Counted from the stretch's first letter, positions 1 through 47,960 are shown. The stretch is 64,000 bases of DNA from Candidatus Bathyarchaeota archaeon (GCA_963826715.1 CAWGYA010000008.1:928001-992000); one strand, 5' to 3'. The notes: a model not told the origin generated them from the letters alone. Made by a program: numbers and translations.

Positions 1-404
1 CTTCTAAACTTAATCAAAATAAGGTCAAAATGGTTTGGGGTAAAGATTTCTTGCCTCAAATGAGTTTGACAGGTCTTGTTTAAACCCCGGTCCCAATTTG
101 AACACTGATAGACTTGGTTCCAATCATCAGAATATAATGAAGTTTGTAAGTTTACCCTTTTTTAGTTTTTATATCTCGCAAAATTGACACTTTCAAATAA
201 ATTATAGACAAAGGCAGAGTATGAATTAACAATAACAATAAATGAATCAATTCTCCAATCGAAATCAAGGTTGAAATTATCTTAAAGACCAATTAACTGA
301 TATTAATTTTCGTTAGTGTCTGATTTAATTAATAACCGCTAAGTCTTTATAATAAGTTAGATAATTAACACCACGTATTGAGGTACGGTTCGGGTTTGCT
401 GGAG

Positions 405-1030
405 ATGGCAGAGAAAAAAGTTCTGAAACATGGTATACTCATAGCTATCGAAGGCATAGACGGCGCTGGAAAAACTACCCAATCCCATATGCTAACAGAA
501 AAACTTAATGAAGAGGGGTATTCTGCTATTTTTTCTCCATGAACCGACCAATGGTCAATGGGGACAAAAGATTCAAAGAATTAGCAAAGAATGAGCGACA
601 CTGAATACCTGCAGAGGAAGAATTAGATCTCTTCTACAAAGACCGCATTGAAGACGTCGAAAAAAATATAAACCCTAACATTAAGGAGAAAAAAAATTAT
701 AGTAATAGATATAGGTACTATTATTCAAACATAACATATCAAGGCATAAGAGGGGTAAACCCAGAATAAGTTGAAAGGATAAATGAAAAAATAGCTCCAA
801 AAACCGCACCTTGTTTTAATTCTTGACATTCCTCCTCAAGAATCATCAAGACGGATCGTTGCTTCTAGAAAGGACGGGCCAAACCATTTTGAGCGAACCG
901 ACTATTTAGAAAAAGTTCGTAACTTGTTACTGTACAGCATTTTCGTGACAGAGATAATGTCAAAATCATAAATGGTGATTCGGCAACCATTCTGCACAAG
1001 AAGTTTTTGATTCTTTGTGGTTCTTGGTAA
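405..1030 (+). pseudogene. tmk: Thymidylate kinase, disrupted by several frameshifts and stops (end approximate)
   Basis: Manual translation: MAEKKVLKHGILIAIEGIDGAGKTTQ (P-loop), then in shifted frames HEPTNG, RYYYSNITYQG, PHLVLILDIP and NHFERTDYLEKVR. Not in the ORF track. Confidence 0.85.
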
Positions 1031-1327
1031 AACCAATAGTGCATGAGGCTGAGGAAACTTAGCGGTGGGCAAGGAAGAACTTGAAAGGCAAATCGCAAAA
1101 GCAGCAGAATCTCAAAGTTCAGGTTCATTGGAGATTAAAAGATTGAAAGAAATTATATGCTTAAATTCCTTTGCACCAAAGGTAAAGATAAATGCGAACC
1201 AGTTTATTGCACCTTTCAAATAACAAATACATGCCCTTTTCTTAGACAAATGGCGTTTTCTCGCAAAGAAATATTCTTTTCATGGATAATTTCAAATGTC
1301 AATAGGTCAATTTCACGGTAACATTTC

Positions 1328-2159
1328 TTAACTCGCTTCAGAGAATTTTATTCCGTACTCCCAAATTAGATTGGCCATATACTTTCCAGATTATATTAGA
1401 TTAATTTTGTTTAATGAACCTATTTTCTCTATAGTTATGTAACCATTTTTGTATCGAGTTTATATAGAATGGACTTGTTTAGATTAATTCAGTTCTTTTG
1501 CTGTATTCTTCGCCTCTCCTCTTTTGATCCAACTGTTTTTTCATCCTGGAAAAGCTCAATTTTTTTGGAAATAAGCAGACGTCAAAATTTACATCAGTAT
1601 TCATTGGTTTGCCTTTAAGAGGAAATGTTTGTTAAGACAATCTTTCCTGGTTCATAAGGGTAGTTTGATTTGAAAGTTCTCAAGCAACATTCCGTCAGGT
1701 TCAACGCAAATACTTATGCCATGTTGTTGTCTTTCTTCGTCATTTCGCGAATATCGATTTGCCCCGACATAGTAGACTTTTTGCGTTATGTGCCATTGCT
1801 GCGAGAGTGGCTACGACTGAAGCCAATCGTTCACCTGCAGACATGTTAACATATGCCAAGACTTATTTGGATTTTTCTTTCAATACCTAGACTAGAAAGG
1901 CTTATTCATTAGCTGTTTAATATCAAATAGGTTGACTTCTTGGACAATGACTTCTATTTTCTTCATTGTCAATTTCTTTTGACTTCGTTTAAGCAACGGA
2001 CTTGCTCCATATTCTCTGCTTTGAAATTTAGGTTCGGAGGTGGCAATCTACTAAGTAAACACGATTAGCGGAGAATTTTTCAAACATTATGACAGCTCTG
2101 TCAATTTCAAAACCCAATAGAATTATATGTACATGCTCTTCAAATTTCAAAACTTTCAT
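1328..2159 (-). pseudogene. DUF6293/HFX_2341-family regulator (CARF/Csa3-like N-domain plus C-terminal wHTH), frameshifted
   Basis: Fragments across frames: MKVLKFEEHVHIILLGFEIDRAV, SANRVYLV, AYVNMSAGERLASVVATLAAMAHNAK, VYYVGANRYS, and wHTH-like NGYITIEKIGSLNKINLI*SGKYMA. Confidence 0.75.
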
Positions 2160-2165
2160 CAACGT

Positions 2166-2188
2166 TTAAACATCTTAACCATGTTTAA
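2166..2188. promoter_or_regulatory. Candidate operator (8-bp inverted repeat) in the divergent promoter region
   Basis: TTAAACAT-N7-ATGTTTAA just upstream of the DUF6293 start. A TATA-like CTTATAAA lies near 2234-2241. Confidence 0.45.
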
Positions 2189-2260
2189 TGATAATTAAAC
2201 TTATTTAGTTAAACAACATTTTCTATCTTCAACCTTATAAAGACTTTGGAAGTTAGAAAA

Positions 2261-2684
2261 ATGTGCCCGAAAAACATCGAGGTTGAATTGACCGACCGCG
2301 CAGTAAATCGTGTGAGGGAATGTGGTTGCGACCCACTTGAAATAATTCACTACCTTTATTCTGGTGAGATTGCAAGTTTCTGAGAACTTTCAAGGGTTTG
2401 AAATTTTAGTACCATTCAAAGGAAGATTAACTGGCACATTTGATAAAGGCATATTTGTTGCCGAATCCTTTTTGTCGCTTATCCATCGTGGCAAGTATTA
2501 CAGTTATCATAGTGAATTTTCGAGAAACCAGTTTTTTGTAATAGTCTCTCTTGTTAGAAGAAGTGGATTAAGAAGAATTGTGGTTTCTTGTACTCGTAAA
2601 GTAGAAATATCATTGTCTGAGTTCGGTTTGACGGAATCTGGGAAACCTTCCATTATCCCAATAAGTAGGTACACCGGGGAGTGA
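2261..2684 (+). pseudogene. Hypothetical protein, probably frameshifted near 2375
   Basis: ATG at 2261 about 25 nt after a TATA-like box gives MCPKNIEVELTDRAVNRVRECGCDPLEIIHYL..., which stops at about 2383. The ORF 2364-2684 continues in another frame. Confidence 0.4.
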
Positions 2685-3067
2685 CAATTTTGAACTTAGG
2701 TATCATTTTCACAAAACGCAACTTCTTATTGATTGGTCTCTTAATCACGATAATAAGGGCTGCTGCCGCCTATATTAATTGGCCTGGTTTTTTATCTAAA
2801 ATTAATCCAGACGAAAAGATAGATTTGGCTAATGTCACTTATCCACAAGCCGCATATAGAAGCCAGAATTTGCCAATCTCGATTAACATTATGAATAATG
2901 GCAATTTCGGAAAAGATGTTATGGTCGAAGTTCTTTCATCAAATAGTGATAGAATTATCAATAATACTGGTATTTCTAGTGGGGGGAGCGCAAATCTTTT
3001 GGTTAATTTACCAGTTAAGAGTTGCGGTAACCAGTCTTTCAAAGTCAATGTCTATTGGAAGGCGTAG
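2681..3067 (+). CDS. Membrane-anchored hypothetical protein with a CARDB/Ig-like beta segment, probably truncated
   Basis: N-terminal hydrophobic helix, then an Asn-rich beta-type pattern (INIMNNGN...GISSGGSANLLVNLPV). Confidence 0.45.
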   Translation: MTILNLGIIFTKRNFLLIGLLITIIRAAAAYINWPGFLSKINPDEKIDLANVTYPQAAYRSQNLPISINIMNNGNFGKDVMVEVLSSNSDRIINNTGISSGGSANLLVNLPVKSCGNQSFKVNVYWKA

Positions 3068-3097
3068 GAGATATTGACCGATTTGGAAAGTGATCAT

Positions 3098-4012
3098 TTG
3101 CAAACCGCAACTCTGGAAGGAAACCGTTTTTTCATACCTATGGTGCCCCCTCAAATAAAACCTGAAACACTTTTGGCTGTATCGCTTCATACATCTTGGA
3201 TTGGAATTAACCTGTTCCAACTTAAACATTCAAGCTTTTATGAGAAAGCGAAAAGTAAAGGTGTCAGAGACGCCTTTGGAATCAATGATAAAATAAAAAT
3301 ATTCTTGACAACAATTAATGACGACAACTACCTTGTAAATTACTTCAATAAATCTAGTTGGTTTGAAGAATTAAAATCAGACTTGAATGGTTTTAGTGCG
3401 GACATGGTTATGGGACCTGATTGGTTTAGTTACAGAGAGGACTCACCAGAACTCAGAAATCGAAACATAAAAAAAGCAATTGATCTGAACTTAATGTTTA
3501 CATATCAAGAGAATATAATACCAACAATTCGAGGAAATTACTCCCAAGAAATTAAGCGTTTTATAAAACCTTTCAAAGAAATAGGAAAAAATTTGTTTGT
3601 TTTTACTGGCAGAGAATATCTAATTAATCTTGGTGATAGGAAGAGATCAGAATTTGAACTTCTTTCTCTCACATCCAATATCGTTAGAAATGAAAAAGTA
3701 AAATTAATTGTAACTGGCTGTAGCAGTCCAAGGCAACAAGAAAATTTACCTGATGTTTTTGGGTTTTCAGGTCTGGGATGGTTAATCAACGCTAAGAGAA
3801 GAATGTTAATTTCAGGCAAGACTTACCGATGGCTTTCATCACCTATATTTTCTTGCGCAGATCCGGATTGCTGCAATTCAATGAACAAATCTGAATTGGC
3901 GCAATCAAAAAATGACTCGATTCGTGCAATTCATAATTTGAAAGCAATTATTGCTAGACTGAACACGGCAAAACATATGCAACAATCTTGTTTGGGGGAT
4001 TTTGATGGGTAA
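3098..4012 (+). CDS. TGT-fold / DUF4417-like protein (putative nucleic-acid base-exchange or modification enzyme); ORF open from 3074
   Basis: MGPDWFSYREDSP..RNRN..IIPTIRG resembles the DUF4417 motif PDFSxYxDxP..N..VIPT. The C-terminal C-x4-CC...AIHNL resembles the TGT Zn site/HNL motif. AGTGAT SD-like sequence precedes TTG 3098. Confidence 0.5.
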   Translation: MQTATLEGNRFFIPMVPPQIKPETLLAVSLHTSWIGINLFQLKHSSFYEKAKSKGVRDAFGINDKIKIFLTTINDDNYLVNYFNKSSWFEELKSDLNGFSADMVMGPDWFSYREDSPELRNRNIKKAIDLNLMFTYQENIIPTIRGNYSQEIKRFIKPFKEIGKNLFVFTGREYLINLGDRKRSEFELLSLTSNIVRNEKVKLIVTGCSSPRQQENLPDVFGFSGLGWLINAKRRMLISGKTYRWLSSPIFSCADPDCCNSMNKSELAQSKNDSIRAIHNLKAIIARLNTAKHMQQSCLGDFDG

Positions 4013-4532
4013 CAAAAGCCGCTCAAAACATTATAATCATAAATCTGGTTATGGTGCTCAAGGAACATTTGCCCAAGTGCAATTTCCTCACATGATGCCT
4101 AGATTAAGTCGAACCGATGTTGACTTATTGCTCCCAGTTTTAAAAGAGGTTGGTAAAGTTATTTGCCCACCTGCAGCCATTCCAATAGAAATTTTATACC
4201 AGCTTTATACACATTCAGATGTGATAACAGAAGTAGGTTCTGCAATTAATAGAGGCGATTACAAGGGGGCAGTTATTGCTGCAGGATACCAAATAGTAAA
4301 AGATGTGGTTGGCACAACATTAAGTTCTAGTGCAAATCAATCAGTCGAAAAAGTTGCTTCAAGCGCAGGTGAGATAACTGGCAATGCATTTAAGGATGAA
4401 CAATCGAAAGAGCTTGCGAAAAAAGTTACTGAAGCCTCCGTAAAAGGAGGTGTAGAAGGGATTCAAGACAAAATAATAGATAAAACAATTGATTCCATAA
4501 AGGGATCGATAGAAGGTGAAAGAAGTGAGTAA
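4002..4532 (+). CDS. Hypothetical helical Gly/Ala-rich protein
   Basis: Intact 176-aa ORF overlapping the upstream stop (translational coupling). Confidence 0.65.
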   Translation: MMGNKSRSKHYNHKSGYGAQGTFAQVQFPHMMPRLSRTDVDLLLPVLKEVGKVICPPAAIPIEILYQLYTHSDVITEVGSAINRGDYKGAVIAAGYQIVKDVVGTTLSSSANQSVEKVASSAGEITGNAFKDEQSKELAKKVTEASVKGGVEGIQDKIIDKTIDSIKGSIEGERSE

Positions 4533-4812
4533 TCAAGCTAAGATTAAACTTATCAAGGATACTGTGATTAAGTCGATTTTATCACAAACTTCCGATAACC
4601 TTGCGAAAAACAGTGTAAGCGAGCAGAAAACTCAGGCTTTATTACGAATAACTGAACTGAAACTTGAGAGAATATTAGACAATTTTGACCAAGCTGACAT
4701 TCTACCTAAAAAGTTCTTATCTCAAGAAGAATTTGAAAGTCATTTACTTACTCTAATTGACTTATCCAAAGAAAGGTTAGTTGAAGACGTAAACCTCGAT
4801 AAGAAACATTAG
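4525..4812 (+). CDS. Hypothetical small helical protein
   Basis: Intact ORF (4516 or 4525 start, AGGTGA SD before GTG 4525) overlapping the previous gene. Confidence 0.6.
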   Translation: MSNQAKIKLIKDTVIKSILSQTSDNLAKNSVSEQKTQALLRITELKLERILDNFDQADILPKKFLSQEEFESHLLTLIDLSKERLVEDVNLDKKH

Positions 4813-5066
4813 CGGATATTGTTCTTGAGATTTGGAGAAAAGATGTTGAAAAAATTAATAGTTTCTTTTAAATAATCTTTGAACGTCAATTGAAAATATT
4901 GAATCATCAAAAAAGTTGCGCTTTTTTTAGTTATCATATTTTCTATGGCCTTCAGAACATAAGTAAAAGGAGTAGTGAGGTTTGTTTAAAAATTTGTTTT
5001 ACTTGTGCAAACAGTTTAAGAAAAGGACTTTCGGTATTGCTTATTTTTACACCAGACGTGTTGTAG

Positions 5067-5186
5067 TCGTTTTGGTATTTCGCCAGAGTTGCACACTCAG
5101 AACAAGAAACTTGCCAATTAATAGAAGCCGGCTTTGAATTCGTATGCGATTTTGGTGTTAACAAGGTTTTCAGAAAACGCAAGTGA
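5067..5186 (+). pseudogene. C-terminal remnant of an archaeal tyrosine integrase
   Basis: YFARVAHSEQETCQLIEAGFEFVCDFGVNKVFRKRK* matches the C-terminal tail (LIEAGFEYVC...FRKRK) typical of Bathyarchaeia/Nitrososphaeria integrases. In-frame stop at 5064; catalytic domain absent. Confidence 0.75.
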
Positions 5187-5233
5187 AATTTGGTGTAGAA
5201 AGTAAACCAAAAAAAATGGAAGGGGATTATTCG

Positions 5234-5257
5234 TAGCGGGCGGGAAGGGATTTGAAC
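5234..5257 (-). other. tRNA 3'-end fragment (att-like; T-loop, T-stem 3' strand, acceptor strand, G73; Arg/Lys-like)
   Basis: Minus strand GTTCAAAT-CCCTT-CCCGCCC-G-CTA. No matching 5' half (GGGCGGG...) nearby. Confidence 0.7.
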
Positions 5258-5259
5258 AA

Positions 5260-5288
5260 AGGACAGCGTGCCCTCAGGCATCTGTCCT
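5260..5288. repeat. GC-rich hairpin abutting the tRNA fragment
   Basis: AGGACAG-cg-TGCC-ctca-GGCA-t-CTGTCCT. Confidence 0.6.
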
Positions 5289-5402
5289 AATCCATCATTG
5301 GTAAATGAAGGATAGCGCTTTTCAAAGGATTGGAGATTATTCTGTATGTGGTTGATTGAGGCGTTATTCCGGAGCCAATTGGACCTAAAATATATTCGTT
5401 AG

Positions 5403-6367
5403 TTACCCAATTTCCACAGTTGTACCTCGATAAGCCATTGTGACCTTTTGAAACAGTTTTACAATGTCTAATGAGCAGAAAAGCGCTTTTGTTAGGTACT
5501 CGTGCTGGTAAATCATCATCTGCGCCTTCACGGGCAAATCGATCTGTGGTGGCTCAAAGAATCGGGCAACTGAATCTACTGGTTCCCCTTCAAGTTGGAT
5601 ATCTTCTTCGCGCAGCCCCGTCTTTTTAGCAATATAGGAAAGGTATGTGCCCTTCCAATCAAGCATCATAACTTCGCAGAGATTATGTCTATAGCTAAGG
5701 CATCGTTGCCCGTTAGAATAAGCCCCATGTTTACTGGTTTGCCCTTGGTTGGTCCGTTGCCCTCTATTCCCGTGCGCGCATCCATAATGGTTAGATTGGG
5801 CTTAAAAAGTGTGTAGAGGAGATAGAACACCTCGGGCAGATATGGGTGCAGATAGATTCGGCGGTTGCTGGGGATACAACCGAATAGGTTCTTAATCGCG
5901 CCGCTGTAAGCCATAAACTCATGCGTTTTCATCAATGGTAAATCAACGACAGCGTCAGCGTCAAGGATGGTTTTGGGCAGAAACAGACGCTTCACCGATG
6001 TGCCATTGTGGAATTTGACTTCGACGATTTTGTCCTCGCTGAGGTTAATGGCAGTTCCACCCGCTGCCTCTACCGCTTCCTTCATGCCTGTCTTGTCAAA
6101 TGCATCCCAGCAAGGATAGTTGATGCCGTTGGATTCGCCCACTACCACTTCGCTGTTGCCATCGCGGAGCAAACCGACGAGTTCCCTCATCAGAGCTGGG
6201 CTAGTGACAACACCGGGCAAGTATTTAGGGTGGCTGAGGTTGGGTTTTATGTAGATACATTTTTTGCCTCGGAGTCCTGAATTAGCGACGGCTTCTTTGA
6301 GGATGCTGCTTATGTCCTTTGATGAACGGAAGATTTTTACGGTTTTCTGCTCAGGTATCATTTCCAT
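5403..6367 (-). CDS. DUF362 Fe-S protein, split by a 1-nt frameshift near 5670 (sequencing error or pseudogene)
   Basis: Motifs YIKPN, VGES, LPLMKTH, SGAIKNLFGCIP and EGNGP. ORFs 5666-6367 and 5403-5669 join as ...IDIISAK/MMLDW. Confidence 0.8.
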
Positions 6368-7778
6368 TTTTCACTCCCATTAAGCAACCGGGGTCACCGT
6401 TGAGCATGTCTCCGTTGTGGTAAGCTGCAGAGCGGGCTCGGCACCCGCCGCAAATGAACTTGTATTGGCATTTGCCGCAGGAGCCTTTGAGATTGGCTCT
6501 GTTGCGGAATTTGTTGAACAGAGGTGCGTTTAGCCAAACGTCCTGGAACTTCTGTGTTTTCAGGTTCCCAACGTTTACCGGCAAAAATACGCAGGGGCGC
6601 AGGTCGCCTTGTGGAGAAATTGAGCAGTAGAGCCTCCCAGCGCCGCATCCGCCGATGAAGTCACCCAGCGGGACAGCCTTCTTCGTGACCTTGACGGTTT
6701 GCATGTGCGCCAGTGCCATCGTGACTTCGCCTGTACCAGAGTCTCCTTGGCACTGAAGGGCGACACGTGCCAGCTGGGGCGCGGTGGCAAGTATGGTGGT
6801 TTTGCATCCCGCTGACATACGGCTAAGCAGATAGTGCATAACATCTTCTCGTTCTTGAGGAGAGAGATCTTGGTCAAAATGCGCTTTGCCTCTGCCCGTT
6901 GGAATAAAGTTGAAGTAGGTGAAGCGTTCCGCATGTATCTCTTCTGCTAAATCGATAATGGCTGGTAACTCTCCAAAGTTGTTTTTACCAACCGTCGTTG
7001 CAATACACACGCACAAGTCAGCTTCGACGCAGTTTTTTAGACCTGCCACTGCCTTGTCAAAGGTACCGGGGACGCCACGAAAGTCGTCGTGTGTTTTGGC
7101 TGAAGCGCCGTCTATGCTTACATCGATGTAGTTGACTCTTGCTTCTTTGATTTTTCGCACGTTTTCTTTTGTGAGTAGCGTGCCATTAGATGCAAGTGAA
7201 ACGTAGAGTCCACGATCAGCGGCATGTCGCGCGACTTGGAAGAAGTCTTTTCGAGTTAAGGGTTCTCCGCCGCTGAATGCCAGAGCAGTTACCTGAGCAT
7301 CTGCCAATTGGTCAACAACAGCGAGGGCTTCCTCTGTGGTCAACTCCTCCTTTTCAACATTGCCGCTATTACTATAGCAATGCTTGCATTGCAGATTGCA
7401 TTTATGAGTAAAATCCCAAACCACCAGGAACGGTGCAGTAAGTGACATAGGTTTTCTAATGCCAAAATGGGCAAACGACTCAACCAAGTTAAGAACTGCG
7501 TTCCGCGCATAGGGGTCAGTTAGGAGCTTCTCGACTTTTGCCCGTTTAAAACCTAATGCTCTGCGCAGAAATTCTATCCAAAACGCAATAATCTGCGAAT
7601 AGAGGTTGTTGCATTTTCTGCATTTCTTATCAGGGTTGCCCCCATAATCATCCAGCGCCGCCTCCAGAACAGTTCTGCTGCAGGCAGGGCATTTTTTGAG
7701 TGATAGCTGGAGCATCCGCTTGGTCATGGGCATGGAGACGATGGCGTTCCAGAACGTGTCATGGCTTAGGATACTCAT
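6351..7778 (-). CDS. Radical SAM/SPASM protein with N-terminal CxxC...CxxC; candidate GMGT synthase (Gms)-family
   Basis: APFLVVWDFTHKCNLQCKHCY, SGGEP, FNFIPTGRG, TAPQLARV, FIGGCGAGRLY and SPASM CxxCxxxxxCxxC. The rSAM/SPASM call is firm; the Gms assignment is from recall of the family. Confidence 0.8.
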   Translation of the reverse strand: MSILSHDTFWNAIVSMPMTKRMLQLSLKKCPACSRTVLEAALDDYGGNPDKKCRKCNNLYSQIIAFWIEFLRRALGFKRAKVEKLLTDPYARNAVLNLVESFAHFGIRKPMSLTAPFLVVWDFTHKCNLQCKHCYSNSGNVEKEELTTEEALAVVDQLADAQVTALAFSGGEPLTRKDFFQVARHAADRGLYVSLASNGTLLTKENVRKIKEARVNYIDVSIDGASAKTHDDFRGVPGTFDKAVAGLKNCVEADLCVCIATTVGKNNFGELPAIIDLAEEIHAERFTYFNFIPTGRGKAHFDQDLSPQEREDVMHYLLSRMSAGCKTTILATAPQLARVALQCQGDSGTGEVTMALAHMQTVKVTKKAVPLGDFIGGCGAGRLYCSISPQGDLRPCVFLPVNVGNLKTQKFQDVWLNAPLFNKFRNRANLKGSCGKCQYKFICGGCRARSAAYHNGDMLNGDPGCLMGVKNGNDT

Positions 7779-8083: not shown

Positions 8084-8719
8084 TTAGGGCTCGTTTTTTT
8101 GCATAATATGCTTGGCTATCTCCAAGTCCTCCATGGTGTTCACGTTGAGAACAACTTCGCTTTCCTCAGTGATTAATGCAGCCGTTTCCACTTTGCCTTC
8201 GCCCAGAACCTTTGCTCCGTTTATGACGTTGATGCCTGAAACTGCGTACCACACACCTCGATACTCGTCGGTACTGGAAATCGACAATCCCAAGCTTAGT
8301 CGCTTCTTGATGGGCACAAATACTGCTAGAAAGTCTTTGCCGCAAACCTCAAACTCACCCACAATCCTATCCAAAACCGCGCCGGTAATCCCGGGAACGT
8401 CAGAAGGCATCGTTAGTACTGGACCCATCCAACCCAGTTTAGACACAGCCTGTTTTAAATCATCATGGTAACCTTTCGCATCAGTATGAATGAATTTCCA
8501 GCCCATGTTGCGGCAGTGGTTTTCAGTTTTAGGCGTATTTGTGCTTGTTATGATGTAGAACTCGGAAACCTTATTGGAAGACAAAACGGCCTCAGCTACC
8601 CAATCCAGTAGTGGTTTACCCAAAAACGGCAACATCGGTTTCTCTGTACGCGCCCCCATTCTGCTGCCTTTACCACCAGCCATAATCAAAGCAGGAACTA
8701 TCAAATTGCCCATCCCCAA
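8084..8719 (-). CDS. cobY: CobY-like NTP transferase (adenosylcobinamide-phosphate guanylyltransferase), copy A
   Basis: MAGGKGSRM..EKPML, TPKT, GYHDDL, GINVI, NVNTxEDL; directly downstream of a cobS-like gene. Confidence 0.75.
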   Translation of the reverse strand: MGMGNLIVPALIMAGGKGSRMGARTEKPMLPFLGKPLLDWVAEAVLSSNKVSEFYIITSTNTPKTENHCRNMGWKFIHTDAKGYHDDLKQAVSKLGWMGPVLTMPSDVPGITGAVLDRIVGEFEVCGKDFLAVFVPIKKRLSLGLSISSTDEYRGVWYAVSGINVINGAKVLGEGKVETAALITEESEVVLNVNTMEDLEIAKHIMQKNEP

Positions 8720-9534
8720 AGCACCAAAGCAAACAGAACCAGCGTCACCATCCTCGCTACCTCATTGGTGGCTCCAATCATGTCACCTGAAACTCCGCCG
8801 AATACAACGTTGGAAACTTTATTCATCACCAACGCCACTGGAAAGCTAACAAACACCAAGCAAACCGCAAAAAAACCCAAAATCGTGTTTCCTGTTATAT
8901 AAAACATAAAAAACGCAATTATGACCGAAAATATGTATGCGGCTGTGTTGAGGGGTTTTTTGGCTTTTGCAAGAAAAATCGAGCCTAAACCCTTATGTGA
9001 AGGTTTTCCAACCCAGACAATCGTCACCATAGAGAGCTTCGCGGTAACTTCAGCCAAAATAATAGCTGCAAACCCAAACGTTGGATTAACCAAACACAAA
9101 CCCACAACAGCCAGCATCTCCACACCCATGGCCAAAACCGCGCCTGCATAGCTAACTGTCCAAGCATGCGCCTTCATTTTACGGTCATGCACGTTGCGTA
9201 AGCCAATTGCGTTGCCGAGGTCAATTAAGCCATCAAAATGCTGCAAGCCCGTGAGCGCCAGAAGAAGCGCAATCGTCATAGCTGCTGGAATCGCTGATGC
9301 AAGAACCGTAGGTAAAGAAACATAGACATTGACTATGTTAAACAGAAAACCCACGATTGCACTTGATAACACAAAATATAAACCGCCAAGCAATCCGATG
9401 AAACCCCCAATTAACGGAAAAAGCCACATATTCTCAGCAGTTGTAAAAATAAAATCCTCTTTTCCTCCAACTGGGATAATGGTTAGGAAAGACAGCAAAT
9501 CCCTAAAAGTTTTTATAGCTTTCATCGGCGACAT
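8701..9534 (-). CDS. cobS: CobS-like membrane protein, diverged copy A
   Basis: FLTIIP, FPLIG, TGLQHFDGLID and FGGVSGDMIGATNE. Two conserved Asp positions are altered. Confidence 0.8.
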   Translation of the reverse strand: MSPMKAIKTFRDLLSFLTIIPVGGKEDFIFTTAENMWLFPLIGGFIGLLGGLYFVLSSAIVGFLFNIVNVYVSLPTVLASAIPAAMTIALLLALTGLQHFDGLIDLGNAIGLRNVHDRKMKAHAWTVSYAGAVLAMGVEMLAVVGLCLVNPTFGFAAIILAEVTAKLSMVTIVWVGKPSHKGLGSIFLAKAKKPLNTAAYIFSVIIAFFMFYITGNTILGFFAVCLVFVSFPVALVMNKVSNVVFGGVSGDMIGATNEVARMVTLVLFALVLWGWAI

Positions 9535-9584
9535 ATACCTACAAACTTTGCCAAAAGAGAATATAGGCTTTGTCGTGACTCGGG

Positions 9585-10520
9585 ATGGCTGACCTTAAAA
9601 ACAAAAATGTAATGGTGACTGGAGGAGCAGGCTTCATAGGATATCACCTCTGCAGTAAACTCTCGCAGTTAACAAATAACTTGTCGATTTATGATAATCT
9701 CTCTAGTGGCAAAATCGAAAATGTTAAAGATGTTCCAGTCGCCCATTTCATTCAAGGAGATATCTTAGACCAGAAAACTCTCAATGGTACCCCAAAACAG
9801 GATTTGATCTATCACTTAGCCGCGCAAGTTGTGGTACCATATTCCATGGAGAATCCACTAATTGATTTCGAAACAAACGCCAAAGGAACAGTGTGTGTCC
9901 TCGAGAAAGCACGTAAAGACGACGCCAAAGTTGTGTTTGCGTCAAGCGCCGCAGTTTATGGCAACCCGACACAGCTTCCAACAGCCGAAGAATACGGCTT
10001 TCACCCCTTCTCATGCTACGGCTTATCCAAAGTTGTGGGCGAAGAATACTGTCAGATGTATCGAGAACAATACGGTCTCGACATTGTGGTCGCGCGGTTC
10101 GCTAACGTCTATGGGTTGCGCTGTCATGGGGTTATTCACGACTTCCTTGAAAAACTTGCCCGAGATCCAAACAAATTGGAAATCATTGGCACAGGACAAC
10201 AAGCACGGGATCTGGTACATGTTTCAGATGTGGTTGATTTGTTGATTACAGTAGGTTCTTTAGAGTCAACTAACGGTAAAACCTATAATGTAGGTTACGG
10301 CAAAACAACCAAAATTATCGACTTAGCCAAAATGATGCTAAAAATACTTAACCTGCAAAACAAAACAATCGTCACAACTACTGGTGTGTCTTGGCAAGGA
10401 GACATTCAGACAATATGGTTCGATAACAGTAAAGCAAAGCGAGAACTAGGTTGGAACCCTAAAGTAACTTTGGAAGAGAGCATAAAAGAAGTCATTGCTG
10501 ACAGGAATCTGCCAGCATGA
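9585..10520 (+). CDS. NAD-dependent NDP-sugar epimerase/dehydratase (GalE-like SDR)
   Basis: VTGGAGFIG, HLAA, SSAAVYG, YGLSK, RFANVYG. Confidence 0.92.
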   Translation: MADLKNKNVMVTGGAGFIGYHLCSKLSQLTNNLSIYDNLSSGKIENVKDVPVAHFIQGDILDQKTLNGTPKQDLIYHLAAQVVVPYSMENPLIDFETNAKGTVCVLEKARKDDAKVVFASSAAVYGNPTQLPTAEEYGFHPFSCYGLSKVVGEEYCQMYREQYGLDIVVARFANVYGLRCHGVIHDFLEKLARDPNKLEIIGTGQQARDLVHVSDVVDLLITVGSLESTNGKTYNVGYGKTTKIIDLAKMMLKILNLQNKTIVTTTGVSWQGDIQTIWFDNSKAKRELGWNPKVTLEESIKEVIADRNLPA

Positions 10521-11419
10521 CCGATTCCTCGCTGACACGAGGGTTAATTGCTCTTCTACGTTTACCTTATTGGCTTATGACTGGCGGATTAGCGGTCCTA
10601 ACATCGTTTGCTATACTTAAAGGAAATTTTGTCGACATCCAAACAACGTTGGGTCCTCTAAGTGTTGTCACGGTGGCTCTTTTGACGTTCTTTTCGCTTT
10701 CTTTCATTGCATCCGGCGGGTTTGCTATTAATGATTATTATGACCGTGACAGTGATGCAGTCATTAAACCGAAGCGCCCAATACCATCAGGTGCACTTTC
10801 CTACAAGCAAGCAATCACTGTTTCAGCTGTTTTTTTTGCGTTAGGGTTAAGCATGGCGTTTCTTATCAACTGGTTAAGCTTCACAATTATAGCTATTGAC
10901 TCACTATTGCTTTTGGTATATTCATTTTTGATTAAGAGGAAGTCTGGTTTTGCAGCAAACCTGTTAATGGGTGTATTAACTGGTACAGCGTTTATTTACG
11001 GGCAGGCAACTTCAACTGGCACAATAAGCTTAGTTTCATTAAGTCTTTATCCAATTGCCTTCGGCACTATTGGAGGTAACATATTGCGAGACATATTTAG
11101 TGTGGAGGGCGACGCCAAAGTTGGATACCCCACTTTGCCCCAGAAAATCGGTAACATGAGTGCCGCCAAAGTCGGCGGATTTTTCTTTCTATTAACTGGA
11201 GTTCTAGCACCCTTGCCTTATTTAATAGGTGAATTCACGGTTTATTATCTGCCTTTAATCCTGCTTTGGAGCATACTGCTAATCTACTCCGCAATAAGGT
11301 TATTCACATCTGCATCAACTGTTGCTAGCATCCGTAAATATGAGCGTATCGTGACAATGTCAATGATGTTACTACCTCTGGCTCTGATAGTTGAAGCCAT
11401 TGTGGGATGGTTAATGTGA
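10517..11419 (+). CDS. UbiA-family prenyltransferase, digeranylgeranylglyceryl phosphate synthase (DGGGPS)
   Basis: NDYYDRDSDAVIKPKRPIPSG and RDIFSVEGDAKVGYPTLP; multiple TM helices; adjacent to tes. Confidence 0.85.
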   Translation: MTDSSLTRGLIALLRLPYWLMTGGLAVLTSFAILKGNFVDIQTTLGPLSVVTVALLTFFSLSFIASGGFAINDYYDRDSDAVIKPKRPIPSGALSYKQAITVSAVFFALGLSMAFLINWLSFTIIAIDSLLLLVYSFLIKRKSGFAANLLMGVLTGTAFIYGQATSTGTISLVSLSLYPIAFGTIGGNILRDIFSVEGDAKVGYPTLPQKIGNMSAAKVGGFFFLLTGVLAPLPYLIGEFTVYYLPLILLWSILLIYSAIRLFTSASTVASIRKYERIVTMSMMLLPLALIVEAIVGWLM

Positions 11420-12882
11420 GCGAAACAAAAAGCATCTGCCCAGAGTGCCAAAAGAAAATCGATGCTCAACTTACCAATGTCAACGGCAAAATCCAAATTT
11501 CCAAACAATGCCCCGAACACGGCGATTTTAAAGCTACCCACTGGCAAAGTAAGCCTATCTTCAGTCACATGCAAAAATATGACCAGTTCCAGTACCTCGG
11601 CGACCTTAATGCGCCCAAAAACCCCGATGGCTGCCCCTACGTTTGTGAGACCTGCCAAAACCACGCATCTGGAACTGTAATTGGTGTTATTGATGTAACG
11701 AAGCGATGCAATTTCCGTTGCGCGGTGTGCTTTTCAACTTTTCCTGACCAGGAAGAGGACTATGAACCCACCAAAGAAGCCTTAATTGATATGCTTGAGT
11801 TTGCGGCCAAGGCTAATCCCAAACCACCAGCGATTCTTTTTTCAGGAGGTGAGCCGCTTGAGCGGGAGGACATGCCTGAAATCATCGCAGCTGCCCACAA
11901 ACTTAAATTTATGACGATTCTAGCAACCAACGGCACCCATTTGGTTACAGACGAAGGATTAGCCCGGAAGCTCAAAGATAACGGATTAAATATCGTTTAC
12001 CTTTCTTTCGACAGTTTTCATGAAGAATTCAACAAAAAAGTTCGTGGGCGACCATTAGTAGATATCAAGTTTAAAGCTATCGAGGTTTGCCGCAAGCATG
12101 ATATGGAAATCATCCTTGTCAATACGCTGATGAAAAGCCTCAACGATAGTGAAGTTGGAGACATGATTCGTTTTGCAGCTAAAAATACTGATATTGTGCG
12201 TGGTTTAATCTTTCAGCCAATTGCCTTTACAGGTCGTGCCACTGAGAATCCTTTTCGCGAAAACTTCCGTGAATGGAGTTTCGCAGAAGACGTTGAAAAG
12301 CAGACCAATGGTGAAATCAAAAGCACCGATCTATTTCCAATGTCAGTTATGACTTCGCCCATTAAAATTATGCGTAAATTCATGATGAAACCGTGGCCGC
12401 TTTTCAGTTGTAGTCCCCAGTGTGGCATTGTAAATTGGATCTACGTTTCTAAAGAGGGCAAGATGTTTCCAATTAACCGCTTCGTGAATTTTGATCGTTT
12501 CTTCAGTTACATCCGCAAAACTGCTGAGGGTGCTGAGTCAAAGGGGAAATTGGCATTGCTTTCTTCCCTGTTTATGGGTTCGATGTTGTCAATGAATATG
12601 CTACTTGTAACCCGCGAGGTCGGTACCTTCACCCTAATAAAGAGCATAATGCGGATGCATCTTTCACCTTCATATCAATCGTTAGGTAAAATTCGAAGAA
12701 GAATTTTCCTTTTAGGTTGCATGGCGTTTATGGATAGCTACAACTTTGATGTGAATCGTGTGCGTCGATGCGTAGTGCATTACATTACTCCTGATAAGAA
12801 AATTATTCCCTTCTGCGCCTATAATAACGTGCATCGAGTTGCTATCGAAAAAGCTTATGCAATGAAACGAAAGAAAGCTTAA
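11407..12882 (+). CDS. tes: Tetraether lipid synthase (GDGT-MAS/Tes, MJ0619 family radical SAM)
   Basis: TKSICPEC...KQCPEHG, GCPYVCETC, IDVTKRCNFRCAVC and C-terminal FMDSYNFDVNRVRRCVVHY.TPD..IIPFCAYN. Confidence 0.88.
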   Translation: MVNVSETKSICPECQKKIDAQLTNVNGKIQISKQCPEHGDFKATHWQSKPIFSHMQKYDQFQYLGDLNAPKNPDGCPYVCETCQNHASGTVIGVIDVTKRCNFRCAVCFSTFPDQEEDYEPTKEALIDMLEFAAKANPKPPAILFSGGEPLEREDMPEIIAAAHKLKFMTILATNGTHLVTDEGLARKLKDNGLNIVYLSFDSFHEEFNKKVRGRPLVDIKFKAIEVCRKHDMEIILVNTLMKSLNDSEVGDMIRFAAKNTDIVRGLIFQPIAFTGRATENPFRENFREWSFAEDVEKQTNGEIKSTDLFPMSVMTSPIKIMRKFMMKPWPLFSCSPQCGIVNWIYVSKEGKMFPINRFVNFDRFFSYIRKTAEGAESKGKLALLSSLFMGSMLSMNMLLVTREVGTFTLIKSIMRMHLSPSYQSLGKIRRRIFLLGCMAFMDSYNFDVNRVRRCVVHYITPDKKIIPFCAYNNVHRVAIEKAYAMKRKKA

Positions 12883-15891: not shown

Positions 15892-16371
15892 CTATGTTGG
15901 TGTCCCTGTATCTTTGAGTGATTTGGTGTAAACATTCGAAGATGCACCCGCTACCAAGGCACCAATGGCGTCATTTGTCAAAGGAGGCAGCTCTTTTAAG
16001 ATGCCCGGTTTAGCTTGGTCGAAACGAACAAACTCAAACATACCTCTTGATCCGCCGATGTAGGTGGCGATTGCTATGCCGATGAGTTCGTCAGCAACAA
16101 GCCCCGGTCTGCCCATGAAACGTTCAACCGTTAGACCTGGAATACGCCCGTTTTCAGCTTCTTGTTGAGCCTGGAAGGCGGCGACAATGAGAGTGGAGAT
16201 ATTAACATCAGTTAAAATGTCAAGGAATTCTTCTTTAAGAAGCGCAGTGGCTTTTTCTGCATTTTCAATGCCTGGATGAGGTACATACATTTCAAGTGCA
16301 CTGTCGATTAGACTTTGGAGGGTTATTCCTCTCTTCTCGAGATATTCAAGCATTGGTGGGTTGATTATCAT
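15892..16371 (-). CDS. cobZ: Archaeal alpha-ribazole phosphatase CobZ (PgpA-like)
   Basis: DVNISTL, LVADELIGIAIATYIGG..GMFEFVRFDQAKPGIL..LPP. ATG at 16371 is the likely start. Confidence 0.85.
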   Translation of the reverse strand: MIINPPMLEYLEKRGITLQSLIDSALEMYVPHPGIENAEKATALLKEEFLDILTDVNISTLIVAAFQAQQEAENGRIPGLTVERFMGRPGLVADELIGIAIATYIGGSRGMFEFVRFDQAKPGILKELPPLTNDAIGALVAGASSNVYTKSLKDTGTPT

Positions 16372-16804
16372 CTTGACCTTGGTTTTTACTGGTGAAGAAT
16401 GGTTTAAAGTTTTGCACAGGTTTACTTGTTTGATTTTAAGTGACATTTAGGCAGTAATTGGAATTTTTGGTTGATTTTATCTTGTTATATGCGCTCTTAC
16501 TTATTCTTAGGAAAGTTTTAAGACAGGATAGCTCAAGTTTATTGATTGTGATCTTTTGGTTTTTTTCTTTATTTATTATCCTAAATATTGATGTTGCTTG
16601 ATTGATTTGAGAATTTTTCCGTAAGCCTTATATTAAATATGTTGGATAAACCAACCAACGTTCGGGTGATGATTTGCTAAACATAAAGAAAACCGCTAAT
16701 CCTTCGAGCAAAGTTTTATCAGCAGCTTTATTAACTAAATGTTTGGCGAGAAAAACCTTATTTTACTGTTTAACTGTTTATAATCCATCAGGAGGAAAAA
16801 ATAG

Positions 16805-17484: not shown

Positions 17485-18573
17485 ATGGATGTTATAATTG
17501 CCAATAATGCGTTGAAAGCAAAAGCCTTCTTAGATGAAATTGAAGGAAAAAATCCCTTATTCATAGTTACAATCGCCACAACTGAAACCGCCAAAATCCC
17601 AGGTTTATCAGCTGCTGGTGCAAACCCCGACTTTACCGATTTTACCCCACCCGCAGATGCTGAGCTGTTGCTATTAGGCAAATGCAAAAGTATACAGGGC
17701 GTTCCAATTACCCCCGACGGTATCCCCACCCCTGCGCTCATTACGACTTCTGCTCTACATCTAGCCGACATACCAGTGCTGGTAGTTAACGGCGGAGTTA
17801 AAGTTAAGCCCCAAATCCCCTATATTGACCTTAGTGGAAGCTCAGGACGCGATATTCGAAGTGGGGACAGTGTCGACAATGTAGAAGAAGTCATTGAACG
17901 CGCAAAAGTCGTTGGTGAACAATTAGCTAAGGTGGCAGATTATCTTGTTATCGGTGAGAGCGTTCCTGGTGGAACAACTACAGCATTAGGCGTATTGATG
18001 GCGTTGGGTGTTGATGCGCAGGGCAAAGTAAGCAGCACGCTGCCAAAAAACCCGCATAGTTTGAAAGCTGAGGTAGTTGCAACTGGATTAAAAGCAGCAG
18101 GCGGAAAATTCGGTAGCCTAAAAAGTGACCCCATTAAGGCTGTTTCTGCAGTCGGCGACCCTATGATGGCGGCGTTGGTAGGTCTAGTTATCGGCGGCGC
18201 ACGTCAGGCTCCTGTGCTGATGGCTGGCGGAACACAGATGACAGCGGTTTTAGCAGTAATTAACGCTCTTAGCCCTGAATCATTATGTAATGTTGCAGTA
18301 GGTACCACTCGCTGGGTGACCAAAGACAAATCCTCTGATATCTGCGGCATAATCAAACAATTCTGCGATGTTCCTGTATTGGCAGCTGACCTAGATTTCG
18401 GTCCTTCACAGTATCCAGGTCTGCAAATCTATGAAACCGGTCTCGTCAAAGAGGGCGTAGGCGCAGGTGGAGCATCAATCGCAGCGATGGCCAAGACCGG
18501 TGGCGCGATTGACAAACAAATTCTTCTTAAGGAGATAGAGCGTAACTATGCCTCACTGATGCAGATAAAGTGA
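17485..18573 (+). CDS. cobT: Archaeal CobT (nicotinate-nucleotide:lower-base phosphoribosyltransferase, TIGR00303 type)
   Basis: TETAKIPGLSAAG, TPALIT, GESVPGGTTTA, GDPM, AGGTQM, VKEGVGAGG. Confidence 0.92.
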   Translation: MDVIIANNALKAKAFLDEIEGKNPLFIVTIATTETAKIPGLSAAGANPDFTDFTPPADAELLLLGKCKSIQGVPITPDGIPTPALITTSALHLADIPVLVVNGGVKVKPQIPYIDLSGSSGRDIRSGDSVDNVEEVIERAKVVGEQLAKVADYLVIGESVPGGTTTALGVLMALGVDAQGKVSSTLPKNPHSLKAEVVATGLKAAGGKFGSLKSDPIKAVSAVGDPMMAALVGLVIGGARQAPVLMAGGTQMTAVLAVINALSPESLCNVAVGTTRWVTKDKSSDICGIIKQFCDVPVLAADLDFGPSQYPGLQIYETGLVKEGVGAGGASIAAMAKTGGAIDKQILLKEIERNYASLMQIK

Positions 18574-18580
18574 GACGCCC

Positions 18581-19360
18581 GTGGTACTTCAAAAGTTAAA
18601 GAACCTGCTATCTTTCCTAACAGTTTTCCCAGTCACCATGGACGAGAACCTACTGACTGACTGCGCACGCAATATGTGGGCTTTCCCACTTGTTGGAGCA
18701 TTTTTAGGTTTACTGGCAGGCTTGTTTGGCTGGGTCACAATTCAGTTTTTGCCAAGTATTGTGGTCGGCGGCTTAGTTCTGGGGCTGCTACTTTTGATGA
18801 CTGGCCTACATCATACGGATGGGTTGCTTGATTTTGGAGACGGTATTATGGTGCATGGTACCCCGGCAAAAAAGATAGAAGTCATGCATGATCAACTTAC
18901 AGGTGCAGGAGCAATCGGTTTAGGCCTAATTACTTATCTAACCACAGCTTTTGCTTTTGCCTCGCTAAGTAATAATGTAATTTATTATGGTTTTAGCATG
19001 CCATTGATTTTTCCCGCCGTGTTAGTTGTTGAGATGTCTGCAAAATTGTCAATGGTAGTGGCGGCGTGGGCAGGAAAATCCGTTCATGAAGGGATGAACT
19101 CAGCATTCCTTCAAGTCATGCACGGTAGAGGTGGTAACTGGCGGCTTTTCGCAGCACTTGTGATCTCTTTTGGAATCGCAGTTCTATTGCTTGGATGGGC
19201 GGGTATATTCACTGTTTTGGTCTCTGTAATCACGGGTTTAGTTATGGTTGCTATTGCACATAGAAACTTTGGTGGAGTCACCGGCGATGTTTTCGGAGCC
19301 ACAAACGAATTGTCGCGGATGGTCGCCATAATTATGCTTTTGGCGGTGGCACTATGGTAG
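18581..19360 (+). CDS. cobS: Cobalamin synthase CobS, canonical copy B
   Basis: TGLHHTDGLLDFGDG, EVMHDQLTG and FGGVTGDVFGATNE. Confidence 0.92.
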   Translation: MVLQKLKNLLSFLTVFPVTMDENLLTDCARNMWAFPLVGAFLGLLAGLFGWVTIQFLPSIVVGGLVLGLLLLMTGLHHTDGLLDFGDGIMVHGTPAKKIEVMHDQLTGAGAIGLGLITYLTTAFAFASLSNNVIYYGFSMPLIFPAVLVVEMSAKLSMVVAAWAGKSVHEGMNSAFLQVMHGRGGNWRLFAALVISFGIAVLLLGWAGIFTVLVSVITGLVMVAIAHRNFGGVTGDVFGATNELSRMVAIIMLLAVALW

Positions 19361-19968
19361 TTGCGCTGGTTATGGCAGGTGGCAGAGGGACACGGATGAA
19401 GTTGCCCATGGAGAAACCGCTCATACCTGTCTGTGGAAAACCTGTAATTGAATATGTGCTCGCCGCGTTGAGCACTTCCCAAAAAATTGACGACATAATC
19501 GTTGCCACAACTATATCCACACCAAAAACCACCACGCTCATGAAGCAGCTTGGTGTAAAAGTAATAGAAACGCCAGGTATAGATTATGTTTCAGATATGG
19601 GTTTCACGGTTCAGACGCAAAAACTAGGCGTTTTCTTGGCGATAGCTGCTGATTTACCTTTGGTGAAGCCTGAAATGATTGATGCTGTTTTGGAACGTTA
19701 TGAGCGCTGTGGCAAACCCGCTTTGACAGTTGCTGTGCCGTTGGAAACCAAGTCTAAATTGGGCATGTGCATCGAGTACAGTTTTAAAGCTGACGATAAA
19801 GAAGTGGTGCCCGTGGGAATAAACGTTATCGACGGAAGTAAACGCTATGGCGATGAATGGCTTGACCAAGACATATACCTCATGCACGATGAGGAACTAG
19901 CGGTTAACATCAACACGGTCGCGGAGCTTAAGTTAGCTGAAAAGATGATGTCAAAATCAAGCTGCTAA
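19354..19968 (+). CDS. cobY: CobY NTP transferase, copy B
   Basis: MAGGRGTRM..EKPL, TPKT, YVSDM, ADLP, GINVI, NINT. Confidence 0.85.
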   Translation: MVVALVMAGGRGTRMKLPMEKPLIPVCGKPVIEYVLAALSTSQKIDDIIVATTISTPKTTTLMKQLGVKVIETPGIDYVSDMGFTVQTQKLGVFLAIAADLPLVKPEMIDAVLERYERCGKPALTVAVPLETKSKLGMCIEYSFKADDKEVVPVGINVIDGSKRYGDEWLDQDIYLMHDEELAVNINTVAELKLAEKMMSKSSC

Positions 19969-47938: not shown

Positions 47939-47960
47939 ATTGTGAATAGGGAGCGGTAGA

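What the first reader, a model, noticed from the sequence alone, without database searches (positions are those of the whole stretch)
8084..9585. Second cobS-cobY pair with altered catalytic Asp residues, head-to-head with the lipid operon
Seen: two cobS-cobY pairs occur within 12 kb. Copy B (18581) has the canonical HxDGxxDxxDG and MHD. Copy A has HFDGLIDLGNA (third D to N) and AHA in place of MHD, yet is full length, and it shares a 50-bp divergent intergenic region with epimerase-DGGGPS-tes. Established: CobY makes an NDP-activated substrate and CobS is a membrane phosphotransferase that joins it to an alcohol. Inference: copy A may be neofunctionalised, either for a different cobamide lower ligand or for phosphodiester head-group assembly on archaeal lipids, or it may be a non-catalytic partner subunit.
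Basis: partly seen in the sequence, partly recalled or inferred. Interest (0 to 1): 0.75.

Follow-up and report, generated by a model that had tools for sequence, protein, structure and literature searches.

The report
Remodelled second cobamide synthase in Bathyarchaeia
These sediment archaea keep a second, well-conserved version of the membrane enzyme that finishes vitamin B12, with one part of its active site rebuilt and its gene locked to the membrane-lipid genes, so it probably does a related but untested job.

Summary
Observation confirmed. Copy A (CobS-A) belongs to an old 'Asn-type' CobS subfamily. The essential third Asp is Asn in 120 of 120 closest homologues and 80 of 80 genome loci. 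It keeps 28 of 32 columns conserved in ordinary archaeal CobS; the four lost are all in loop 2. dN/dS is 0.14, so it is not decaying. It sits head-to-head with epimerase/DGGGPS-like/tes in 79 of 79 assessable loci. However, the lipid operon's likely TATA box lies inside cobS-A codons 6-11, which can lock the junction mechanically. In one 11-genome clade the ordinary CobY-B has replaced CobY-A behind an unchanged, equally constrained CobS-A. This suggests the donor is still cobinamide-GDP, although whether those genomes keep cobY-A or cobS-B elsewhere is unchecked. Best reading (0.42): an active, specialised cobamide-loop enzyme that makes an alternative cobamide or swaps lower ligands. Rivals: lipid head-group or lipid-anchored corrinoid synthesis (0.25), non-catalytic partner (0.20), plain isozyme (0.12). 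No function was tested. Ten literature searches of the held library found no description of this subfamily.

The parts
8701..9534 (-). cobS-A: Asn-type CobS subfamily, 277 aa polytopic membrane protein. Keeps H99, D101, D105, E162, K166, D251, E258, R261. Has N108 for the third Asp, AHxW for MxD, T/S128 for a conserved Gly, and an 18-aa longer TM1-TM2 hairpin.
   Evidence: PF02654 94 bits (cut-off 23.2), TIGR00317 107.9 (cut-off 110); model pLDDT 87.6
8084..8719 (-). cobY-A: CobY-family nucleotidyltransferase overlapping the end of cobS-A; keeps the residues matching M. jannaschii CobY R13, K19, D101, G153, N177, T180, D183
   Evidence: best PDB hits 2MZB and 3RSB, E 4e-20 and 3e-19; TIGR00454 124 bits vs 144 for CobY-B, both under the 174.7 cut-off
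9561..9573 (-). TATA/BRE-like element 23-28 nt before the cobS-A start codon (probable leaderless promoter)
   Evidence: 77 of 79 loci; promoter function inferred
9502..9518 (+). BRE/TATA-like element pointing into the epimerase operon, embedded in cobS-A codons 6-11
   Evidence: TATA-like octamer in 72 of 79 loci; Ile7 is ATA in 74 of 74 Ile (background 27%), Lys8 is AAA in 79 of 79 (background 71%); promoter function inferred
9585..10520 (+). NDP-sugar epimerase/dehydratase (GalE-like SDR)
   Evidence: PF01370 178 bits; PDB 3ICP E 1.6e-53
10517..11419 (+). UbiA prenyltransferase, DGGGP-synthase-like
11407..12882 (+). tetraether lipid synthase Tes
   Evidence: NF045702 460 bits, cut-off 450
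6351..7778 (-). Radical SAM/SPASM protein downstream of cobY-A; AhbD-like with about 115 extra N-terminal residues, the published description of GMGT synthase Gms (not confirmed by sequence comparison)
   Evidence: TIGR04545 best hit, matched from residue 118; PMC11214058 passages; within 10 kb in 43 of 48 full loci
15892..16446 (-). cobZ-like alpha-ribazole phosphatase
   Evidence: TIGR03161 135.5 bits, cut-off 152.5
17485..18573 (+). archaeal cobT
   Evidence: TIGR00303 399 bits, cut-off 240
18581..19360 (+). cobS-B, canonical cobamide synthase
   Evidence: TIGR00317 152 bits; third Asp in 119 of 119 and MHD in 116 of 119 close homologues
19354..19968 (+). cobY-B

Best explanation
CobS-A is an active, specialised second enzyme of cobamide nucleotide-loop assembly, not a dead copy and probably not a lipid head-group synthase. 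Shown: it keeps the CobS scaffold, two of three loop-2 Asp, the loop-6 Asp and the conserved E/K/E/R residues, and has rebuilt only the second half of loop 2. Inferred: CobY-A makes GDP-activated cobinamide as CobY-B does. CobS-A binds this corrinoid donor with metal held by D101/D105/N108/D251 and transfers cobinamide-phosphate to an acceptor that CobS-B handles poorly, giving an alternative cobamide, or it exchanges the lower ligand of salvaged cobamides as reported for Vibrio cholerae CobS. Its place beside the lipid operon reflects co-regulation of membrane functions, held by interlocked promoters.
For: 28 of 32 columns conserved in at least 80% of 114 Asp-type CobS are kept in 85 A-type rows; the four lost are at positions 108, 114, 124 and 128. 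dN/dS 0.141 for cobS-A and 0.107 for cobY-A, against 0.097 and 0.080 for copy B, in 17 genomes. In 11 of 77 loci the gene after cobS-A is a B-clade cobY (77 B-like vs 10 A-like diagnostic sites) with the A-type start overlap. These 11 are one nested clade (support 0.999); their CobS-A keeps N108, H123 and W125 and has dN/dS 0.135 vs 0.116-0.139 in three control groups. CobY-A keeps the CobY nucleotide-binding residues. cobD, cobZ, cobT and cobS-B lie within 10 kb in 33, 35, 31 and 30 of 48 full loci. The Atlas neighbours are all CobS (30 of 30). A CobS with remodelling activity is reported in Vibrio (PMC7733943 passages).
Against: Salmonella D89A gives no growth (PMC8092220 Table 1), and the matching residue is Asn here; D89N was not tested there. 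That paper assigns loop 2 to the AdoCbi-GDP donor, so changes in loop 2 point to a changed donor, in tension with the CobY swap. The swap is one event, and whether those genomes keep cobY-A or cobS-B elsewhere is unchecked (only weak negative evidence for cobY-A). CobY-A and CobY-B are only 32% identical with many clade-fixed differences, which would fit different substrates. The tightest neighbours are lipid genes, and no second cobT was seen next to copy A.
Confidence: 0.42

Rival explanations
1. Lipid route. CobY-A activates a small phosphorylated alcohol (for example aminopropanol- or ethanolamine-phosphate from CobD) or cobinamide-phosphate itself, and CobS-A transfers it to an archaeal isoprenoid lipid or glycolipid, giving a phosphodiester head group or a lipid-anchored corrinoid.
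For: Epimerase, UbiA and tes are linked in 79 of 79, 77 of 77 and 77 of 77 assessable loci, with 0 changes on the tree against 6-10 for four neighbouring junctions. A Gms-like radical SAM gene lies on the other side (43 of 48 full loci). The active-site changes fall in the loop assigned to the corrinoid donor. The family has an extra 18-aa membrane hairpin. CobS chemistry (an alcohol attacks an NDP-activated phosphate) parallels CDP-alcohol phosphotransferases (established knowledge, recalled). A lipid-anchored corrinoid would also fit the CobY-B swap.
Against: The lipid operon's likely promoter lies inside cobS-A. Scaling the 6 breaks of the 237-bp cobZ|dph6 divergent spacer to 49 bp predicts only about 1.2 breaks (hand arithmetic), so zero breaks is not significant alone. 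For the small-molecule version, CobY-B replaced CobY-A without relaxing CobS-A. No Pfam CDP-alcohol phosphotransferase match. Linkage was checked only in the 80 closest of 222 loci.
Confidence: 0.25
2. Non-catalytic partner. CobS-A is a pseudoenzyme that binds corrinoid or nucleotide, or scaffolds CobS-B, CobY and CobZ at the membrane.
For: It lacks an Asp that is essential in Salmonella. CobS is reported to recruit CobC to liposomes and is proposed as a complex anchor (PMC8749415 passages). It tolerates either CobY. Its dN/dS is the highest of eight neighbouring genes.
Against: The other three Asp shown essential in Salmonella (D82, D86, D229 equivalents) are in 85 of 85 A-type rows. The new residues N108, H123 and W125 are as fixed as catalytic ones (80 of 80). 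It carries its own coupled cobY (77 of 77).
Confidence: 0.2
3. Plain isozyme. CobS-A performs the standard AdoCbi-GDP plus alpha-ribotide reaction, with Asn and His compensating for the lost Asp residues, and is kept for regulatory reasons.
For: CobY-B can sit behind it. dph6-cobT-cobS-B is missing beside cobZ in 12 of 41 assessable loci, including 6 of the 11 swap loci. A complete genome of that clade (L052) is reported to hold 21 of 23 B12 genes (PMC11697101 passages).
Against: 114 of 114 Asp-type representatives keep the third Asp. Two copies coexist within 10 kb in 30 of 48 full loci, both under purifying selection, which is hard to explain by pure redundancy.
Confidence: 0.12
4. Decaying duplicate or sequencing artefact.
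For: Loss of an essential residue; the window has one probable frameshift nearby, in the DUF362 gene.
Against: dN/dS 0.14; Asn108 in 80 of 80 loci by two codons; a single deep clade.
Confidence: 0.01

Closest known systems
CobS, adenosylcobinamide-GDP ribazoletransferase (PF02654, TIGR00317; Salmonella enzyme, PMC8092220)
   Same: Same family and length; H80, D82, D86 and GxxGDxxG equivalents kept; gene coupled to cobY.
   Different: D89 equivalent is Asn; the MxD...G motif is replaced by AHxW...T/S; 18-aa longer first hairpin; coexists with a canonical copy; lies with lipid genes rather than cobT.
Archaeal CobY, GTP:AdoCbi-P guanylyltransferase (M. jannaschii, PDB 2MZB and 3RSB, PMC4626045)
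   Same: Best structural-database hit; nucleotide-binding residues kept.
   Different: Separate clade from CobY-B (support 100) with many fixed differences; substrate untested.
Vibrio cholerae CobS with remodelling activity (as cited in PMC8092220 and PMC7733943; primary paper not read)
   Same: Precedent for a CobS doing more than the standard condensation.
   Different: There it is reported for the organism's CobS itself; here it would be a dedicated paralogue. No sequence comparison was made.
Nucleotidyltransferase plus CDP-alcohol phosphotransferase pairs (IPCT/DIPPS, Kennedy pathway; recalled)
   Same: Two-step logic: activate a phosphate ester with an NTP, then transfer it to an alcohol at the membrane.
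   Different: Different protein family (no Pfam match); no evidence for CTP use or a lipid substrate.

Membership tests
CobS protein family | Pfam PF02654 above cut-off | tested here: met
   94.3 bits vs 23.2
CobS equivalog (cobamide synthase) | TIGR00317 above cut-off | tested here: not met
   107.9 vs 110, marginal; copy B scores 152.1
CobS equivalog (cobamide synthase) | Loop-2 motif HxDxxxDxxD | tested here: not met
   Last Asp is Asn in 85 of 85 A-type rows and Asp in 114 of 114 others. Salmonella numbering was transferred by the published motif, not by direct alignment.
CobS equivalog (cobamide synthase) | Loop-6 motif GxxGDxxG with essential Asp | tested here: met
   G250, D251 and G254 in 85 of 85, G247 in 84 of 85
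CobS equivalog (cobamide synthase) | Polytopic helical membrane protein | tested here: met
   All-helical model, pLDDT 87.6; hydrophobic sequence; membrane location inferred
CobS equivalog (cobamide synthase) | Joins AdoCbi-GDP and alpha-ribazole-5'-P | not testable with these tools
   needs complementation or assay
CobY | Nucleotide-binding residues R13, K19, T180, D183 and G153 | tested here: met
   alignment to 2MZB; 100% in 64 CobY-A rows; residues named in PMC4626045
CobY | NCBIfam cut-offs TIGR00454 and NF045495 | tested here: inconclusive
   CobY-A 124 and 104, CobY-B 144 and 115; both copies are under 174.7 and 250
CobY | GTP plus AdoCbi-P gives AdoCbi-GDP | not testable with these tools
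   indirect only: replaced by CobY-B in one clade
CDP-alcohol phosphotransferases | Sequence match to the family | tested here: not met
   PF02654 is the only Pfam hit
CDP-alcohol phosphotransferases and other lipid enzymes | Shared fold | tested here: inconclusive
   best VIA-align match CDP-DAG synthetase 4Q2E, Z 7.9, rmsd 4.5, 167 aligned, within background for helical bundles
DGGGP synthase (neighbour 10517-11419) | Family model and closest characterised relative | tested here: inconclusive
   NF009521 157 vs 296; best PDB hit is DGGGPS 6M31
GMGT synthase Gms (neighbour 6351-7778) | AhbD-like radical SAM/SPASM with about 100-aa N-terminal COG4001 extension, in the Gms clade | tested here: inconclusive
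   architecture fits; no Gms sequence or COG4001 model was available to compare

The most novel reading that the evidence does not exclude
CobS-A is a B12-pathway enzyme redirected to membrane lipids: it transfers cobinamide-phosphate (or a CobD-derived aminoalcohol-phosphate) from a GDP-activated donor onto an archaeal ether lipid, giving a lipid-anchored corrinoid or a new head group, co-regulated with DGGGP synthase, Tes and a Gms-like enzyme. The lipid-anchored corrinoid version fits both the lipid linkage and the fact that the ordinary CobY-B can stand in for CobY-A.
Probability: 0.18. Interest if true: 0.9.

Novelty: new variant of a known kind. Interest (0 to 1): 0.55.

Why it matters
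CobS has been treated as a single-function enzyme with an invariant acidic motif, and no solved structure matched it here. A natural subfamily that changes only one loop gives a direct handle on which residues recognise the corrinoid, the nucleotide and the acceptor, and on why the enzyme is in the membrane. Bathyarchaeia are abundant, rely on corrinoid methyltransferases and B12 radical SAM enzymes, and some make unusual lipids, so either a new cobamide route or a lipid route would bear on their physiology. Practically, databases label both copies as cobS, which can inflate B12 pathway counts.

Tried and rejected
Fold search: no Foldseek match at E <= 0.001; the wide search gave nothing at Z >= 8, so no structural guide to substrate. 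Complex prediction of CobS-A with CobS-B: no verdict, score 0.00 against a mark of 0.32, counted neither for nor against. My first reading that MHD aligns to HAW was dropped after the wider alignments. My first reading that A and B are not sister clades was dropped: the AU test does not reject sisterhood, p = 0.53. A chimeric CobY with an A-type body in the swap clade was rejected, since the body is B-type. Looking for cobY-A or cobS-B elsewhere in swap-clade genomes was inconclusive: no listed hit sat on a contig of matching length among the best 120 of 1766 or 120 of 2044, no diverse sister group appeared, and it is unverified that those genomes are in that collection. Supplements gave no cobS rows; the annotation tables of PMC11697101 are in a zip too large to read and could settle this. 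Bacterial promoter scan was uninformative. No Rfam match in 1-30000. Plasmids held only 2 distant ordinary cobS. Taxonomy and neighbours of the deep Asn-type members, the other 142 genome loci, and viral and metagenome contigs stayed unchecked. Rows left out: fragments under 200 aa and three frameshifted or fused representatives in the tree; loci with split genes (66 rows including the window; 17 rows including the window).

Full report
Observation. The window holds two cobS-cobY pairs. Copy A is cobS 8701-9534(-) with cobY 8084-8719(-); copy B is cobS 18581-19360(+) with cobY 19354-19968(+) behind cobT. They are 33% and 32% identical. Copy A reads HFDGLIDLGN where copy B reads HTDGLLDFGD, and AHAW where B reads MHDQ. 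The 50-bp divergent spacer to an epimerase, a DGGGPS-like UbiA protein and Tes is as described.

What the changed residues mean. In Salmonella CobS the motif is H80xDxxxDxxD89. D82A, D86A, D89A and D229A give no growth, while H80A and M104A are partial and are rescued by more cobinamide or DMB. The authors link loop 2 to the AdoCbi-GDP donor; D106 and D89N were not tested (PMC8092220, Table 1 and sections read). I transferred the numbering by motif, not by direct alignment. Copy A's N108 is the D89 position.

A subfamily, not an accident. A protein search gave 1302 hits among 8000 candidates; N108, H123, W125 and D251 are in all of the best 120. Of 150 distant representatives listed (839 hits), 116 have Asp, 17 Asn, 2 another residue and 15 are unreadable. 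The Asn-type rows long enough to place form one clade reaching down to about 40% identity (0.992; SH-aLRT 99). Whether A and B are sisters is unresolved (AU p = 0.53). Of 32 columns conserved in at least 80% of 114 Asp-type CobS, 28 are kept in 85 A-type rows; the four lost are positions 108, 114, 124 and 128, all in loop 2. The Met column is deleted or Ala. The family also has 59-68 residues between the FPxxG and HxDG motifs, against 43 in 71 of 97 measurable Asp-type representatives. In 17 genomes with all eight genes, dN/dS is 0.141 (cobS-A), 0.107 (cobY-A), 0.097 (cobS-B), 0.080 (cobY-B), 0.070 (epimerase), 0.085 (ubiA), 0.035 (tes) and 0.060 (cobT). The model is confident (pLDDT 87.6) and puts D101, D105 and N108 on one helix, but it has no clear solved relative.

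Gene context. The genome scan found 222 loci and returned the best 80, at 59-81% identity, nearly all titled Bathyarchaeia. The few with other titles that were placed nest among them. Epimerase, ubiA, tes and a cobY follow the window's order in 79 of 79, 77 of 77, 77 of 77 and 77 of 77 assessable loci. On a 66-row tree the cobS-A|epimerase junction changes 0 times, against 6 to 10 for four neighbouring junctions. Two things temper this. First, the spacer is short: scaling the 237-bp divergent cobZ|dph6 spacer (6 changes) to 49 bp predicts about 1.2 changes (hand arithmetic). Second, the promoters look interlocked. cobS-A has a TATA-like element 23-28 nt before its ATG in 77 of 79 loci, and a BRE/TATA-like element facing the lipid operon lies inside cobS-A codons 6-11 in 72 of 79, with Ile7 always ATA (74 of 74, background 27%) and Lys8 always AAA (79 of 79, background 71%). 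These loci are related, so the counts are not independent. If the elements are promoters (inferred), moving cobS-A would silence the lipid operon. The wider region mixes both themes: a Gms-like radical SAM gene, cobD, cobZ, cobT and cobS-B occur within 10 kb in 43, 33, 35, 31 and 30 of 48 full-length loci. Loci were selected on cobS-A, so its loss cannot be seen, and deeper lineages are unchecked.

A natural experiment. In 11 loci (L044, 052, 058, 064, 068, 069, 071, 072, 077, 079, 080) the gene after cobS-A is a B-clade cobY, B-like at 77 diagnostic sites and A-like at 10, yet with the A-type start overlap. They form one nested clade whose sister keeps cobY-A, so this is one event. Their CobS-A keeps the signature and its constraint (0.135 vs 0.116-0.139). 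The simplest reading is that CobS-A works with the product of either CobY, that is cobinamide-GDP, or needs neither. The gap: dph6-cobT-cobS-B is no longer beside cobZ where visible, and I could not establish whether cobS-B or cobY-A survive elsewhere in these genomes (searches give only weak negative evidence).

Mechanism. I favour (0.42) an active, specialised cobamide-loop enzyme: CobY-A supplies GDP-cobinamide, and CobS-A, with a rebuilt loop 2, joins it to a different acceptor or exchanges lower ligands. The scaffold, selection and swap are shown; donor, acceptor and catalysis are inferred. The main tension is that loop 2 was assigned to the donor in Salmonella. The lipid route (0.25) has the gene order, the extra hairpin and the chemistry for it, and the promoter lock and the swap against it; a lipid-anchored corrinoid would survive both objections and is the boldest open reading. 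A non-catalytic partner (0.20) explains the lost Asp but not the fixed new residues or the three retained essential Asp. A plain isozyme (0.12) must explain long coexistence of two constrained copies. Decay is refuted.

Comparison with what is known. It is a CobS-family protein but fails two defining tests of the cobamide synthase equivalog (motif, and narrowly the TIGR00317 cut-off). Ten searches of the held library showed no title or abstract on this subfamily or linkage. The two most direct searches returned 0 papers and 1 paper without cobS. Subscription papers and most supplements were not searchable, and Dong et al. 2025 on Bathyarchaeia lipids was seen only as a citation. Papers seen: PMC8092220 outline, passages and two thirds of Results; passages only of PMC8749415, PMC4626045, PMC11697101 (Table S1 searched), PMC7110647, PMC10477458, PMC11186832 (supplements searched), PMC11214058 (supplements searched), 10.1101/2025.10.20.683597 (75), PMC12694404 and PMC7733943; listing and supplements only of PMC7886697. 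Archaeal BRE/TATA consensus, IPCT/DIPPS and Kennedy-pathway logic are recalled.

Verdict. Real, conserved and apparently undescribed: a new variant of a known enzyme with an open function and a clear test. Interest 0.55; 0.9 if the lipid route proves true (probability about 0.18).

Noticed in passing
window 5406-6367 (-): The DUF362 gene stops at 233 aa and continues in another frame (71% identical to the C-terminus of the 320-aa L010 orthologue): probable single-base indel, assembly error or pseudogene.
   Followed up: partly
window 1-5600: 35-39% GC stretch with ORFs 2681-3067, 3074-4012, 4002-4532 and 4516-4812 that match no family tested; the two tested against the loci are absent from all 80. 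Possible insertion.
   Followed up: no
window 6351-7778 (-): Radical SAM/SPASM protein fitting the published description of GMGT synthase Gms; the junction with cobY is often interrupted (35 of 70 adjacent).
   Followed up: partly
window 20078-20959 (-): AP-endonuclease-2 family gene convergent on cobY-B. The cobamide remodelling enzyme CbiR belongs to this superfamily, but endonuclease IV is the ordinary reading.
   Followed up: no
L058:17626-18747, L020:11470-13194: CobD-like aminotransferase (TIGR01140 274 bits, cut-off 290.55) in the neighbourhood; in L020 it is fused to a DUF6693/DUF4234-like membrane ORF and lies directly against cobY-A. Not present in the window.
   Followed up: partly
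L009, L042, L045, L047, L055, L062: dph6-cobT-cobS-B-cobY-B is missing beside cobZ although related genomes have it (L043 vs L047, L036 vs L042): the B module is repeatedly moved or lost while the A block stays.
   Followed up: partly
L022, L031, L045, L049, L062, L074 and others: B12-binding radical SAM genes (BchE/HpnJ-like) recur near the block, in 12 of 48 full loci; candidates for lipid modification.
   Followed up: no
window 40720-41238 (+), 45650-48827: CDP-archaeol synthase CarS, and AglB-like and GlcNAc-1-P transferase-like genes (judged by eye), lie in the same window.
   Followed up: no
L022, L060: Records titled Methanocella sp. and Limnocylindrales bacterium carry the Bathyarchaeia block and nest among Bathyarchaeia: probably mislabelled.
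   Followed up: no
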